A stretch of 49,852 nt of DNA from a virus (lineage: Duplodnaviria; Heunggongvirae; Uroviricota; Caudoviricetes): IMG/VR virus record IMGVR_UViG_2913167280_000010, positions 1 to 49,852 of that record; one strand, written 5' to 3'. A program made the translations under genes and the position numbers. Position 1 is the first letter of the stretch, and each line of letters opens with the position of its first letter. A model generated the notes under the pieces. The model saw only the letters and a list, made by a program, of their open reading frames with translations, ran no database searches and was not told where the DNA came from. Below are positions 14,725 through 17,835 of the stretch, piece after piece.

Positions 14725-16716
14725 TTATCCCTGTATTTGTTGCGTTCCGGCGAGTTGTGCCAGTATGTCGGAACCCGGCGATTGTCGCACCTGAAGCTCA
14801 ATTATTGCGCGGGCATTTTTGCCAGCACCCTGAAGGTTATCTCTGGCATTTCTTAGCTGATTCATAATACCAGGGTGTTGATCCAAAGCTCCCTGTATCT
14901 GAGGCAATAATTTAATTAAATATTTTACAGTCTCCATTCTCAAACTTAGATTTCCATCTCTATCAATACGACCTCCGTTATATGCCGTAAGCATTTTTGC
15001 CACATCGCCTTTATAACGCCGGTTCAGATCATTTAAAAAGCGGCCAGCCGCAAGAATGGATTTATTTGGGTCATAAACATCATCACCCACCAGACCATAC
15101 TGTTTTGCGGTGCTATCCCAGAATTGCCACAACCCCTTAGCGAATCTACCTTTTTCATCTGGAGTTCCTCTTGCCAGAGGATTCCACGAAGATTCAACCT
15201 CCGCGATAGCTGACATCATATTTTTAGGAAGTCGATAAGTATTATTGGCTTGCTCTACAAAGTTCTGAATATTTCTCTTTAAATCATTAGGCATACGGTA
15301 ATTTTTATATACATCATCCTGTTTATAAAACTCACCCGTATACTGATTTGTCATCGGGTTTGCTCCCGGCAACGCACCACCGAGATATTTATTCCCAAAT
15401 GCCGCAAGAACTGGATCTGCCTGTTCAGCACCAACTCCGGTTCCGGGGAGATATTTATCTTCCCCACCGATCCATTTGATAGCTGACCATATTGCTTTTG
15501 CAATCCGGCTCACCGCCAGAGAAAAATCGTCAAGATCATTTTTAAATTGTTCACTATTCAGCCACTTGCCAAGTTTCTCCAACCCTTCGCCAGCCTCAGT
15601 GAGAATTTTTTTAAAATTTCCACCATTCAGAAAACCTTCAATATTGGATGTCAGCCCATCAGATGCACCTCTGATTAGTGGGTTATATCTGGCGAGAGCT
15701 GCATACCAGGAATTTGATATTCTGTTTCCATTTACCATCAGGTTACTCACCGTGTCCTGATAACCTGACTGCATAGCTGGCGTGAGGTAAGCGCCGAGTA
15801 ACCTGGTATTTGCTGCAAATTTCTCATTCAGTTGGAGGATCTTGTCCAGATTCGCTTCCACCTGGTTAGTTGTCGCGACATCAACAAATCCAAGCCCTTG
15901 TCCGTTGAGAATCCCCTGAGTAAGTCCTGAACCTTTATATTGCTTAACGAGAGATGCAAGCGCGCTCATAAGTTTGGGCAGATTCTTTGCAGCACCATCT
16001 CGCGGATCAATTCCAAGACTGACCAAGCCAGCATAGTTTGGATCGTTCGGGTTTTTCTGTGCGTTCGCCAGATGCTGAACCAGTTCTTCTGTGCCAGAAA
16101 AATATGGCGAATAGGTGGCACGTGCAGCCTGCATTTGGGCGGTTTCCATCCCTAACCCCTGAGCAACGCTATACTGCGCCGCGACTTTGCTTGCCATATA
16201 GCCGTAGCCAAACGGCCCCACTACCCCTATTGCAGCTATTTTCGCCCCCCACGAAACCGTGGTTTTAAACAGGCTTTTTAACCGGGAATTAGTCGTTTTA
16301 AGCGTTGAATTGATCTGCTTGTAAGTTTTCAGCGTCTGTTTGGCGTTTTTCCCCAGCCCGCTGAGGTACTTATCAAACATCGTTTCGCCGCGACCTTTAT
16401 AGTTGCTCACCAGCGAATCAGGTGTTTTCCCGCTGCCAACAAAGCGCCCTTTTTCATCCCTTAAACGTCCATCAGTGGACGCAGTCGGAACTGGCGCAGG
16501 TGAAGATGGTTTCCTGGGAGCCTGATTGGCTTCTCCGCCTGTAGTTGTCTGCCGGGCGCCACCTCCCTGACCTGTATTTGAAGGTATTTTAAGCGGTGTC
16601 CCGGCAGGACCAATCATCAGTCCGTTGCGATACTTTTCAAATATCGCCTCAAGCCGCCTGAGGTGTTCTTCATTAACATCCAGCGTCAGAACTGGCGTCT
16701 GGTTACCAGCCATCAC
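14725..16716 (-). CDS. Tail tape measure-like protein with lytic transglycosylase (SLT) domain
   Basis: 663 aa; SLT-type motifs (AEVESSWNP, GLWQF, AYNGG); located directly after the frameshifted chaperone. Confidence 0.6.
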   Translation of the reverse strand: MMAGNQTPVLTLDVNEEHLRRLEAIFEKYRNGLMIGPAGTPLKIPSNTGQGGGARQTTTGGEANQAPRKPSSPAPVPTASTDGRLRDEKGRFVGSGKTPDSLVSNYKGRGETMFDKYLSGLGKNAKQTLKTYKQINSTLKTTNSRLKSLFKTTVSWGAKIAAIGVVGPFGYGYMASKVAAQYSVAQGLGMETAQMQAARATYSPYFSGTEELVQHLANAQKNPNDPNYAGLVSLGIDPRDGAAKNLPKLMSALASLVKQYKGSGLTQGILNGQGLGFVDVATTNQVEANLDKILQLNEKFAANTRLLGAYLTPAMQSGYQDTVSNLMVNGNRISNSWYAALARYNPLIRGASDGLTSNIEGFLNGGNFKKILTEAGEGLEKLGKWLNSEQFKNDLDDFSLAVSRIAKAIWSAIKWIGGEDKYLPGTGVGAEQADPVLAAFGNKYLGGALPGANPMTNQYTGEFYKQDDVYKNYRMPNDLKRNIQNFVEQANNTYRLPKNMMSAIAEVESSWNPLARGTPDEKGRFAKGLWQFWDSTAKQYGLVGDDVYDPNKSILAAGRFLNDLNRRYKGDVAKMLTAYNGGRIDRDGNLSLRMETVKYLIKLLPQIQGALDQHPGIMNQLRNARDNLQGAGKNARAIIELQVRQSPGSDILAQLAGTQQIQG

Positions 16717-16777
16717 AATACTCCTGCGGGATTTTTGAATTTGAGCAGCTCACGAAACTGAGCTGCTGTTTTTACAT

Positions 16778-17395
16778 TCAAACCGGAATCTGCACAGATG
16801 TCTCTGAATCCGGTTCCGGCTGAGTAGTCGAGGATGTCGCTGATGACGTGTTCGCCGTCGCGCCAGAACTGGCGACAGGCTTCAATGTCGGCAATGAAGC
16901 AATCCATTCCGTAAGACTCAAGGATGAAGTGCGACTGTTCCACATTCCACTGACTGCCAGCATCATCTGCTCCGTCTGCTCCGGTGTGTTTATCGACGAG
17001 ACGCATGTAAAAAAAACGAGTTCACCTGCCACATCATCAAATTCAACGATGCCGCGCTCCAGCGCCATATCAAGCGGGATCGTGTCGTAACCTTTCCCTT
17101 CGGCTGGGTAAACCAGATTCGCAAGGCGAATGATTTCATTCACGAGCGTATTGCGAACGCCCTTTTCGCCATCCCAGATATTCATATCTGAGGAGATCCG
17201 TTCCAGCATAAGACAGGCGATACGCGGCCCCGCAACGACGCCCAGGCCTTCTGAAAAAATGGCAGAAAAGGTTTTACTCAGGATGAAGAAGTGCTCTTTA
17301 AACACCTCTTTGCTGATCGGCGTGGCATGGATCCAGCCGTTACCCTTTTCTGTCCGGACAGGAATAATCAGATTCAGATTTCGGGAGATTTTCAT
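16778..17395 (-). CDS. Tail assembly chaperone (zero frame); putative -1 frameshift product extends to 16713
   Basis: Located between tube and tape measure genes; ATG at 17395 overlaps the tube stop; T_TTT_TTT slippery heptamer at 17009..17017 (minus strand) leads into the overlapping frame 16713..17006. Confidence 0.5.
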   Translation of the reverse strand: MKISRNLNLIIPVRTEKGNGWIHATPISKEVFKEHFFILSKTFSAIFSEGLGVVAGPRIACLMLERISSDMNIWDGEKGVRNTLVNEIIRLANLVYPAEGKGYDTIPLDMALERGIVEFDDVAGELVFFTCVSSINTPEQTEQMMLAVSGMWNSRTSSLSLTEWIASLPTLKPVASSGATANTSSATSSTTQPEPDSETSVQIPV

Positions 17396-17835
17396 ACCAA
17401 ATCCCACATTTCAGAGTTGATGTAATACGTACCGGTAATGGTGATAGCCACACCCGGCTCGCCCCCGGCGAAGGTCATATCCTGCACGTTGGTGATCGCC
17501 GTGTTATAGATATCGAAGTCACCGAACACCGTGCTGTCGCTATACACTTTTGCGTCGCCGATCGTGGCGTTCTTTTCCCATTGCGCCTTGAATTGTTTTC
17601 CCAGCGCCTGGCTACGCAGCAGATGAACACGCGCCTGTAAAATCATGTATGGCTGCGGCGACTGCACGGCTCCCGCCATAGCAGGTAAAAACTCCGTGAT
17701 ATTGCCCTGAAAGGACAATTCGACGCCTTCTTTTGCCAGAAATGAGGCGGACACATTCAGTTCGGAATGAGAGGTGAATTTAACGCTGGCGCGAACCCGG
17801 TTAAGGGTGCCAACGGGGATCATTGGATTAGGCAC
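17392..17835 (-). CDS. Tail tube protein (by position and size)
   Basis: 147 aa ORF between sheath-like and chaperone genes. Confidence 0.45.
   Translation of the reverse strand: MPNPMIPVGTLNRVRASVKFTSHSELNVSASFLAKEGVELSFQGNITEFLPAMAGAVQSPQPYMILQARVHLLRSQALGKQFKAQWEKNATIGDAKVYSDSTVFGDFDIYNTAITNVQDMTFAGGEPGVAITITGTYYINSEMWDLV

What the first reader, a model, noticed from the sequence alone, without database searches (positions are those of the whole stretch)
16713..17407. Canonical -1 programmed frameshift signal in the tail assembly chaperone between tube and tape measure genes
The zero-frame ORF contains GTT TTT TTT ACA, giving the X_XXY_YYZ heptamer T_TTT_TTT on the minus strand at 17009..17017. 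A -1 slip enters the overlapping frame (16713..17006), which is protein-like and ends 3 nt before the tape measure start. The zero-frame continuation is S/T-rich and low complexity. This matches the conserved G/GT-type frameshift of tailed phages.
Basis: partly seen in the sequence, partly recalled or inferred. Interest (0 to 1): 0.35.

Follow-up and report, generated by a model that had tools for sequence, protein, structure and literature searches.

The report
Frameshift site in phage tail chaperone
A run of eight T's in a prophage tail-assembly gene is a deeply conserved ribosome slip site that yields two proteins from one gene, as in phages lambda and P2, but here it sits mid-gene, so the two proteins have different conserved C-terminal ends.

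Summary
On the minus strand, a 205-aa ORF (17395..16778) lies between the sheath/tube genes and a 662-aa tape measure gene. It reads GTT TTT TTT ACA, giving the heptamer T_TTT_TTT at 17015..17009. The -1 frame opens two codons before the run. It stays open for 98 codons and stops at TGA 16715..16713, overlapping the tape measure ATG.

Comparative evidence is very strong:
- 82 of 86 related loci keep T8 with the downstream ORF in -1.
- Relatives at about 30% identity from Klebsiella, Pantoea, Yersinia and Shewanella phages keep the heptamer in register, as do GC-rich viral contigs.
- In the cultured relatives the -1 ORF has no ATG.

I conclude it is a lambda G/GT or P2 E/E+E'-type recoding site. 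No database annotates it in this lineage.

It is conserved in more than 700 sequence clusters, and about half of the sampled representatives end in a hydrophobic-Pro-x motif. G and GT therefore branch mid-gene and share a 77-codon dual-coding overlap. In lambda and P2 the overlap is about 6 codons.

No stimulatory RNA structure was found. Ribosomal slippage and transcriptional slippage cannot be fully separated. This is a new member of a known kind with an unusual geometry.

The parts
17847..19184 (-). Tail sheath gene (445 aa)
   Evidence: Matches phrog_205 'tail sheath', E=1.2e-53. Same position in all related phages.
17392..17835 (-). Putative tail tube gene (147 aa). Its stop TGA 17394..17392 overlaps the chaperone ATG (ATGA).
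   Evidence: Assigned by position and size directly after the sheath. Matches phrog_6566, function unknown, with no PDB or Pfam match. The role is inferred.
16778..17395 (-). Zero-frame chaperone ORF 'G' (205 aa, stop included). N-domain is residues 1-129. A conserved helical segment runs to about residue 172. An S/T-rich tail ends in ...QIPV.
   Evidence: phrog_11810, full length. 741 homologues, all named 'hypothetical protein'. 726 clusters at 50% identity, mostly 180-230 aa and aligned over positions 1 to ~185.
17009..17015 (-). Slippery heptamer T_TTT_TTT (X_XXY_YYZ in the zero frame: GT T_TTT_TTT A), inside the T8 run 17016..17009.
   Evidence: Read. Conserved in 82 of 86 loci, plus one T_TTT_TTC. 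Kept in distant phages and GC-rich relatives. U_UU.U_UU.Y motifs are among the efficient -1 motifs in E. coli (PMC4066793).
16713..17009 (-). -1 frame segment 'T' (98 codons plus TGA). Linker is residues ~4-19, followed by the conserved domain ...LESYGxDxFIADIExxRQFWRDGEHVIS.ILDY...KTAAQFRELLK. The predicted fusion GT is complement(join(16713..17009,17009..17395)): 129 + 98 = 227 aa with junction ...GELVFF/YMRLVDK.
   Evidence: phrog_14324. Homologues at 55-93% identity. No ATG in L014, L093 or the cultured relatives. P(frame open given the zero-frame protein) = 0.011.
16778..17009 (-). Dual-coding overlap of 77 codons, read in both the zero and -1 frames.
   Evidence: Codon-phase entropy shifts from zero-frame position 3 to -1-frame position 3 between codons +25 and +48. 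There are no stops in either frame in 63 unique sequences.
14725..16713 (-). Tape measure protein gene (662 aa from ATG 16713) with a C-terminal SLT lytic transglycosylase domain. AGGAG lies 7 nt upstream of the ATG.
   Evidence: PF01464 SLT, E=1.5e-20. phmmer hit to PDB 9b45 'gp41 Tape measure protein', E=4.2e-9. The TGATG/TAATG stop-start overlap with the -1 ORF is present in all 24 diverse loci.

Best explanation
This is the tail assembly chaperone gene pair of a temperate myovirus-type prophage (closest deposited phage: Escherichia phage Rac-SA53). It is expressed by programmed -1 ribosomal frameshifting.

Most ribosomes read the zero frame and make a 205-aa protein (G). A minority slip back one base while tRNA-Phe occupies the P and A sites on U_UUU_UUU (17015..17009). 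Both tRNAs re-pair perfectly with UUU UUU in the -1 frame. Those ribosomes then read UAC AUG CGU... to the TGA that overlaps the tape measure start. The result is a 227-aa fusion (GT): G residues 1-129 plus a 98-residue T module.

By analogy with lambda gpG/gpGT and P2 gpE/gpE+E', the shared N-domain would coat the tape measure protein. The T module would recruit tube subunits, so the fixed slip frequency would set the G:GT ratio needed for tail assembly.

This lineage has one special feature. The slip site lies two-thirds of the way along G. G and GT are therefore alternative C-terminal versions of one N-domain, and 77 codons are read in two frames.

What is shown: the sequence anatomy, the synteny, the conservation of the heptamer, purifying selection in both frames, and the absence of a start codon for T in relatives.

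What is inferred: that slippage really occurs, its frequency, that it is ribosomal rather than transcriptional, and what each module binds.
For: (1) Anatomy. The heptamer is in the X_XXY_YYZ register. The -1 frame is closed by TGA two codons upstream, open for 98 codons afterwards, and ends on the tape measure ATG.

(2) Synteny is sheath, tube, G/T, tape measure.

(3) Census of 86 loci with T-domain identity of 55-100%. 82 have T8 with T in the -1 frame. One has GTT TTT TTC, still a slippery heptamer in -1. Two have T9, which gives in-frame G-T fusions.

(4) The three synonymous sites of GTT TTT TTT are frozen, while 0 of 50 upstream third positions are invariant.

(5) Cultured phages at 28-34% G identity keep T_TTT_TTT at the same residue. 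These are Klebsiella Chronis, Pantoea PdC23, Yersinia vB_YenM_21.09 and Shewanella QDWS. Each has a homologous 101-115-codon -1 ORF containing no ATG.

(6) Twelve relatives with 61-68% GC keep TTT TTT at the site, although elsewhere in the same ORFs Phe is TTC 43 times and TTT 4 times.

(7) FF is present at the equivalent position in 140 of 144 representatives that share at most 50% identity. It is one of only four invariant columns in a 37-sequence alignment with a mean column identity of 32%.

(8) The minimal conserved element is exactly the heptamer. PdC23 (TGT TTT TTT) and L100 (GCT TTT TTT) lose the first T of the run, and L081 (GTT TTT TTC) loses the last. All three keep X_XXY_YYZ in register.

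(9) U_UU.U_UU.U and U_UU.U_UU.C are among the efficient -1 motifs measured in E. coli, and UUUUUUU is otherwise avoided in E. coli genes (PMC4066793).

(10) The experimentally established P2 site is T_TTT_TTG in the same gene position of a contractile-tail phage (PMC5009743).
Against: There is no direct evidence of the product. No proteomics, ribosome profiling or reporter data were available.

No conserved stimulatory element was found. The best downstream consensus structure is a 5-bp stem at -1.3 kcal/mol, and the region folds less well than shuffles (z = +1.85). The upstream GGN GAR codons vary freely at third positions, and Rfam gives no hit.

G and T show no sequence similarity to lambda G or T or to any Pfam, NCBIfam or PDB entry. 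The structure models were too poor to test the fold (pLDDT 41 and 56). 'Chaperone' therefore rests on position and architecture.

A homopolymer of 7-8 T could also support RNA polymerase slippage, which would give the identical protein.

The geometry, with the slip 77 codons before the stop, departs from the textbook case.
Confidence: 0.8

Rival explanations
1. Transcriptional slippage. RNA polymerase stutters on the T8 tract and adds one U to a fraction of transcripts. Standard translation of those mRNAs (GUU UUU UUU UAC AUG...) gives exactly the same GT fusion. It may act alone or together with ribosomal slippage.
For: The site is a homopolymer of 7-8 T in every relative. UUUUUUU is avoided in all three frames of E. 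coli genes, which the authors attribute partly to transcriptional slippage (PMC4066793). No RNA stimulator typical of efficient ribosomal frameshifting was found. T9 and T7 length variants occur in assemblies, which shows the tract is indel-prone.
Against: The conserved element is exactly the seven bases that form X_XXY_YYZ in the zero-frame register, not the longest possible run. Variants lose a T at either end yet keep the heptamer: TGT/GCT TTT TTT, and GTT TTT TTC. The only substitution seen at the last position is T to C, which stays within the efficient H_HH.U_UU.Y class for ribosomal slippage. To my knowledge, bacterial slippage sites in use usually have runs of 9 or more. P2, the closest characterised case, uses T6G and is described as translational.
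Confidence: 0.13
2. Two separate genes. The 97-aa ORF is translated on its own from ATG 17006, which follows the T-run directly. No fusion protein is made.
For: Gene callers and PHROGs treat it as a free-standing 97-aa protein (phrog_14324). The ATG is present in most close relatives.
Against: There is no Shine-Dalgarno sequence at a usable distance (GGTGA ends 15 nt upstream). The ATG is replaced by CTG in L014, L088 and L093, and the whole -1 ORF of L014 and L093 lacks ATG. The homologous -1 ORFs of Chronis, PdC23 and vB_YenM_21.09 contain no ATG at all. This model does not explain why three synonymous sites just upstream are frozen as T, even in genomes with 61-68% GC.
Confidence: 0.03
3. 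Artefact or decay. The T8 tract is a homopolymer sequencing error or a frameshift mutation in a defective prophage. The real gene would be either a single in-frame G-T fusion (T9) or G alone.
For: Two IMG/VR loci have T9 and an in-frame fusion (L043, L076). One error-rich assembly has T7 (L006). The Yersinia similis copy is clearly a remnant.
Against: T8 with the -1 arrangement appears in 82 of 86 independent loci and in functional, plaque-forming or inducible phages from four genera. Both frames are under purifying selection after the site. The long zero-frame form is the norm in 726 sequence clusters.
Confidence: 0.02

Closest known systems
Bacteriophage P2 gpE / gpE+E' (-1 frameshift in the FETUD tail operon)
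   Same: Contractile-tail phage of E. coli with the gene order sheath, tube, chaperone pair, tape measure. The slippery site is a T-run heptamer in the X_XXY_YYZ register (P2: GGT TTT TTG = T_TTT_TTG, annotated 'site of -1 translational frameshift'). The -1 ORF ends overlapping the tape measure start.
   Different: P2 gpE stops 6 codons after the slip, so E+E' contains nearly all of E. Here the zero frame runs on for 77 conserved codons. The last base of the heptamer is G in P2 and T (or C) here. P2 E (91 aa) is much smaller than this G (205 aa). No sequence similarity was tested directly against P2 E.
Bacteriophage lambda gpG / gpGT (Levin et al. 1993; Xu, Hendrix & Duda 2004, 2013, 2014, as summarised in PMC5009743)
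   Same: Two overlapping ORFs between the major tail gene and the tape measure gene. The downstream ORF is in -1 with no start of its own. The T ORF ends overlapping the tape measure start (lambda T 10115..10549, H from 10542). The proposed logic is the same: a fixed G:GT ratio, with G binding the tape measure and T binding the tail tube protein.
   Different: Lambda is a siphovirus. Per my own recollection of the lambda literature, its heptamer is G_GGA_AAG. Its slip site is 6 codons before the G stop. There is no detectable sequence similarity to lambda G or T (hhalign probability below 1%).
Dual-coding recoding sites with long overlaps (for example IS3-family orfA/orfAB, or dnaX tau/gamma)
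   Same: A slippery heptamer inside a gene yields two proteins that share an N-terminus and differ at the C-terminus. There is no requirement that the slip be near the end of the zero-frame ORF.
   Different: These belong to different protein families and biology. They normally carry a Shine-Dalgarno-like or hairpin/pseudoknot stimulator, which was not found here.

Membership tests
G/GT-type tail assembly chaperone frameshift (Xu, Hendrix & Duda 2004 class) | Gene pair located between the major tail/tube gene and the tape measure gene | tested here: met
   Sheath matches phrog_205. A tube-sized ORF follows. Downstream lies a 662-aa protein with an SLT domain and a hit to PDB 9b45 'Tape measure protein'. 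The order is the same in 4 cultured relatives.
G/GT-type tail assembly chaperone frameshift (Xu, Hendrix & Duda 2004 class) | Downstream ORF overlaps the upstream one in the -1 frame and has no translation start of its own | tested here: met
   -1 offset in 83 of 86 loci. No usable Shine-Dalgarno sequence. The ATG is absent in L014, L088 and L093, and no ATG occurs anywhere in the -1 ORF of Chronis, PdC23 and vB_YenM_21.09.
G/GT-type tail assembly chaperone frameshift (Xu, Hendrix & Duda 2004 class) | Slippery heptamer X_XXY_YYZ in the zero-frame register inside the overlap, conserved in homologues | tested here: met
   T_TTT_TTT at 17015..17009. Conserved down to ~28% protein identity and in genomes with 61-68% GC.
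G/GT-type tail assembly chaperone frameshift (Xu, Hendrix & Duda 2004 class) | Slip site close to the 3' end of G, so that GT contains essentially all of G | tested here: not met
   The zero frame continues for 77 codons here and 59-89 codons in relatives, against 6 in lambda and P2. This is a typical feature rather than a strictly defining one.
G/GT-type tail assembly chaperone frameshift (Xu, Hendrix & Duda 2004 class) | Sequence or fold relationship to known chaperones (lambda gpG/gpT, Pfam/PHROG tail assembly chaperone families) | tested here: inconclusive
   No Pfam, NCBIfam or PDB-sequence hit. The PHROG matches have unknown function. hhalign to lambda G and T gives probability below 1%. 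The AlphaFold models are too poor for fold search (pLDDT 41 and 56). The class is known for low sequence similarity (PMC5009743).
G/GT-type tail assembly chaperone frameshift (Xu, Hendrix & Duda 2004 class) | Both G and GT are made at a fixed ratio, both are needed for tail assembly, and neither is in the virion. G binds the tape measure and T binds the tube protein. | not testable with these tools
   Needs proteomics, genetics and binding assays.
Programmed transcriptional slippage sites | Long homopolymer (usually 9 or more A/T) whose length, not codon register, is what is conserved; heterogeneous transcripts | tested here: inconclusive
   The run is 7-8 T. Variants shorten it at either end but keep the heptamer register, which argues against slippage. 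Transcript heterogeneity cannot be tested here.

The most novel reading that the evidence does not exclude
In this large and wholly unannotated family of myovirus chaperones, the frameshift is a mid-gene branch point rather than a C-terminal extension. One N-domain (residues 1-129) is joined to one of two modules. The first is a conserved helical segment, then a disordered S/T-rich linker, then a terminal S-hydrophobic-Pro-x motif (G). The second is the T domain (GT). About 45 codons are under simultaneous purifying selection in two frames. If the G-specific tail has its own partner, such as the sheath, the baseplate or a tail terminator, then the frameshift ratio controls a choice between two different adaptor functions. 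It would not merely control the dose of one extension. Phage satellites that carry their own copy of this gene pair plus a tape measure might exploit the same switch.
Probability: 0.55. Interest if true: 0.5.

Novelty: new member of a known kind. Interest (0 to 1): 0.3.

Why it matters
Practically, every deposited genome of this lineage lacks the GT fusion protein. This covers Rac-SA53, Chronis, RothC/D, PdC23, the vB_YenM phages, QDWS and prophages in 93 of 5,426 complete E. coli genomes. All of them call G 'hypothetical' and leave an apparent 60-130 nt gap before the tape measure gene. Annotating the frameshift fixes that. It also names two PHROG families of unknown function (11810 and 14324).

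Conceptually, the site adds a clean, deeply conserved example of U_UUU_UUU used without a detectable RNA stimulator. It also shows that the G/GT strategy tolerates a 77-codon dual-coding overlap with two functional C-termini. That makes it a good natural system for studying selection on overlapping frames and the role of the G-only tail in tail assembly.

Tried and rejected
- **Structure route.** AlphaFold2 of G (28-sequence alignment) gave pLDDT 41 and of T (14 sequences) pLDDT 56. Both are too poor, so no fold search was run. The allowed alignment sources were all at least 57-67% identical.
- **Sequence annotation.** Pfam, NCBIfam, PDB-sequence profiles and hhalign against lambda G and T all came back empty.
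- **Stimulatory RNA.** RNAalifold on 24 diverse sequences found only a 5-bp stem at -1.3 kcal/mol. The single-sequence fold was weaker than shuffles, and Rfam gave nothing. An upstream Shine-Dalgarno-like GGTGA is not conserved at third positions.
- **An alternative slip site nearer the zero-frame stop.** I looked for one and rejected it. The frozen nucleotides and the opening of the -1 frame both point to the T-run.
- **Zero-frame extension kept open only by chance.** Synonymous recoding of the T protein leaves it open in 34% of trials, so openness alone is weak evidence. Residue-level conservation and the deep homologues settle it instead.
- **Fetching DNA of distant relatives.** The 36-sequence alignment was too divergent for the search for related loci, and one single-protein scan found nothing. 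The contig of P0137 could not be fetched.
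Full report
**1. What is in the sequence**

All genes discussed here are on the minus strand. The order is:
- a 445-aa sheath gene at 19184..17847 (phrog_205 'tail sheath', E=1e-53);
- a 147-aa tube-sized ORF at 17835..17392;
- a 205-aa ORF from ATG 17395 to TGA 16780..16778;
- a 662-aa protein from ATG 16713.

The 662-aa protein carries an SLT lytic-transglycosylase domain. It matches the solved 'gp41 Tape measure protein' of PDB 9b45 at E=4e-9.

In the frame of the 205-aa ORF the sequence reads GGT GAA CTC GTT TTT TTT ACA TGC. The T8 run is 17016..17009, and the X_XXY_YYZ heptamer T_TTT_TTT is 17015..17009. 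The -1 frame has a TGA at 17024..17022 and is then open for 98 codons (YMRLVDK...AGVL). It ends at TGA 16715..16713, whose A is also the A of the tape measure ATG.

The heptamer coordinates are slightly off. The -1 ORF does not end 3 nt before the tape measure start but overlaps it.

**2. Is it more than chance?**

T7 runs as such are not rare in this window (30 found against 25 +/- 7 expected). The weight comes from comparison with relatives.

Nearly identical DNA occurs in Escherichia phage Rac-SA53 (95.7%) and in prophages of 93 of 5,426 complete E. coli genomes. None of them has the frameshift annotated. The -1 ORF lies in an apparent 64-nt 'gap' before the tape measure gene.

I collected 85 further loci that encode the -1 ORF: 5 bacterial genomes and 80 IMG/VR contigs, at 55-93% amino-acid identity. 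Together with the window that makes 86 loci:
- 82 have T8 with the downstream ORF in the -1 frame.
- One (L081) has GTT TTT TTC TCA, which is still a slippery heptamer, T_TTT_TTC.
- Two (L043, L076) have T9, which gives an in-frame fusion.
- One is a Yersinia remnant in which a holin gene has replaced the 5' part.

Among 64 unique sequences, none of the 50 third-codon positions upstream is invariant (mean 1.37 bits). The third positions of GTT TTT TTT, in contrast, are T in 64, 64 and 63 sequences.

Stop codons in 63 unique sequences, counted in the zero/-1/+1 frames:

| Region | zero | -1 | +1 |
|---|---|---|---|
| Upstream of the run | 0 | 585 | 370 |
| In the overlap | 0 | 0 | 258 |
| After the zero-frame stop | 138 | 1 | 84 |

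Given the zero-frame protein, the -1 frame would stay open in only 1.1% of synonymous recodings.

**3. Deep conservation**

A profile search of 1.84 billion representative proteins found 726 clusters at 50% identity. In a 37-sequence alignment with a mean column identity of 32%, only four columns are invariant. Two of them are the Phe-Phe encoded by the slip site. FF is present at the equivalent position in 140 of 144 full-length representatives.

tblastn found cultured relatives at 28-34% identity, all with the same gene order and none with an annotated frameshift. They are Klebsiella phages Chronis and RothC/D, Pantoea phage PdC23, five Yersinia vB_YenM phages and Shewanella phage QDWS.

I read the DNA of four of them: Chronis, PdC23, vB_YenM_21.09 and QDWS. 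Each has:
- GTT TTT TTT A, or in PdC23 TGT TTT TTT A, at the FF codons;
- a -1 frame that runs on for 101-115 codons;
- a recognisably homologous domain encoded in that frame (...YG[IV]xRF[LV]A[DE][VL][ED]...).

In Chronis, PdC23 and vB_YenM_21.09 the -1 ORF contains no ATG at all.

Twelve further relatives have 61-68% GC and a GC3 of about 0.8. In their G ORFs Phe is TTC 43 times and TTT only 4 times elsewhere. All of them still keep GTT or GCT followed by TTT TTT A at the site, and it is the only T7+ run in each 3.5-kb locus.

**4. Mechanism**

The best explanation is tandem -1 slippage of two tRNA-Phe on U_UUU_UUU. This gives a 227-aa fusion, G 1-129 plus 98 residues, with the junction ...GELVFF/YMRLVDK.

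Sharma et al. measured all such motifs in E. coli. They list H_HH.U_UU.Y, which includes U_UUU_UUU and U_UUU_UUC, among the efficient ones. They also note that UUUUUUU is otherwise avoided in E. coli genes (PMC4066793).

I found no stimulator:
- The consensus downstream structure is a 5-bp stem worth -1.3 kcal/mol.
- The window sequence folds less well than shuffles (z = +1.85).
- Upstream Shine-Dalgarno-like bases vary freely.
- Rfam gives no hit.

The roughly 27 nearly invariant bases after the heptamer are explained at least partly by dual coding. To my knowledge lambda G/GT also works without a stimulator and at a low level.

The main rival is RNA polymerase slippage on the T tract, which would produce the identical protein. 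Against it, the conserved element is exactly the heptamer in register. PdC23 and L100 lose the first T of the run and L081 loses the last, yet all keep X_XXY_YYZ. I cannot exclude a transcriptional contribution.

Independent initiation at ATG 17006 is unlikely. There is no usable Shine-Dalgarno sequence, the ATG is missing in L014, L088 and L093, and it has no counterpart in the cultured relatives. Sequencing error or gene decay is excluded by the census.

**5.

The zero-frame continuation is not throw-away sequence. It stays open for 78 codons (67 in one subgroup) in every close relative, and for 59-89 codons in distant ones. Most of the 726 clusters are 180-230 aa and align out to profile position ~185.

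Codon-phase analysis shows where the constraint lies:
- Upstream, variation sits at zero-frame third positions.
- Codons 0-8 after the slip are almost invariant at all three positions.
- Codons +6 to +26 vary at all positions.
- Codons +30 to +44 show a mixed, dual-constraint pattern.
- Only from about +48 does variation move to the third position of the -1 frame.

Residue by residue, zero-frame N136, V148, G150 and W152 are invariant, and P138, Q140 and M145 are nearly so. The -1-frame residues lying over them carry 1.0-1.7 bits of entropy. From residue 174 the pattern is the reverse.

The -1 product's residues 4-19 are thus a variable Gly/Asp/Ser-rich linker, and they are also the low-confidence stretch of the model. 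The last ~35 residues of G form an S/T-rich tail. That tail nevertheless ends in [ILVMF]-P-x in 79 of 144 distant representatives, and in S-[ILVMF]-P-x in 61 of them. The window ends ...QIPV, and the shortened subgroup ends ...VPV.

G and GT are therefore two alternative C-terminal versions of one N-domain, with a 77-codon overlap read in two frames. In lambda and in P2 the zero-frame stop follows the slip site by 6 codons.

**6. Comparison with the known class and membership**

The features that define the G/GT class are mostly met: position between the tube and tape measure genes, a -1 overlap with no separate start, a conserved in-register heptamer, and a stop that overlaps the tape measure start. 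The typical 'slip near the end of G' feature is not met.

Homology to known chaperones could not be shown by sequence. It could not be tested by fold because both models failed. The literature describes the class as conserved in position and strategy despite low sequence similarity (PMC5009743).

The closest characterised case is P2 E/E+E', with T_TTT_TTG in a contractile-tail phage. The binding roles, N-domain to tape measure and T to tube, are inferred by analogy only.

**7. Verdict**

This is a real, strongly conserved recoding site of a well-known kind, in a lineage where nobody has annotated it. Papers on the related phages do not mention it. Novelty: a new member of a known kind, with an unusual mid-gene branch geometry that may deserve follow-up. 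Interest is modest at 0.3.

Noticed in passing
L113 (E. coli ETEC4077, NZ_CP122648.1, ~957.1-972 kb); also L005, L031-L033, L064: A ~14-kb integrative element sits next to tRNA-Gly. It has a P4-like gene set: integrase, Icd-like, primase, ProQ/FinO, PerC, NUDIX, DUF2213. It carries its own copy of the G/GT chaperone with the T8 slip site intact, plus a 679-aa tape-measure-like gene, but no sheath or tube genes. It looks like a phage satellite that brings its own tail-length machinery.
   Followed up: partly
L043 and L076 (T9); L006 (T7); contig of P0137: Length variants of the T tract occur in public assemblies. T9 fuses G and T in frame. T7 puts T in +1 and truncates G at 134 aa. L006 is an error-rich assembly with fragmented sheath ORFs. 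I did not resolve whether the others are sequencing errors or natural indel or phase variants.
   Followed up: partly
window 16744..16767 (minus-strand mRNA AGCAGCUCA-GUUUCG-UGAGCUGCU): A perfect 9-bp hairpin lies 11 nt after the G stop codon, inside the -1 ORF (codons ...TAAQFRELL...), about 30 nt before the tape measure start. Of 23 distinct sequence variants of this segment among the relatives, 11 keep all 9 pairs and 9 keep 8. Most changes are G-U-compatible, but the segment also encodes invariant residues, so a function is unproven.
   Followed up: partly
C-terminus of the zero-frame protein, window 16781..16792, and the homologues: The low-complexity tail of G ends in a recurrent S-[ILVMF]-P-x motif (SVPS, SIPS, SVPH, QIPV...) in about half of the distant representatives. 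This suggests a short terminal docking motif.
   Followed up: partly
L008 / L010 (Yersinia similis chromosome): This is a degraded copy. The 5' two-thirds of G is replaced by a holin-family ORF (PF16931) that reads into the T tract in the third frame. The T8 run, the -1 ORF and the tape measure gene are retained.
   Followed up: partly
PP818812.1 (H2/H36): 'Actinobacillus phage vB_Apl-pPE4' is 93% identical in DNA to this Escherichia/Salmonella prophage tail region. That is surprising for a Pasteurellaceae host and may point to a host misattribution or contamination.
   Followed up: no
window 33688..33841: Two adjacent tRNA genes on the minus strand, tRNA-Gly(UCC) and tRNA-Thr(UGU), lie within the window. 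I did not examine their relation to the prophage.
   Followed up: no
window 16713..16777 and the equivalent stretch in L001-L005 and L096-L099: GenBank and PGAP annotations of all relatives leave a 57-130 nt unannotated 'intergenic' stretch between the chaperone and the tape measure gene. This stretch is in fact the 3' end of the -1 ORF. In Chronis, the -1 ORF even runs 76 nt past the annotated tape measure start, so that start may be mis-called.
   Followed up: partly
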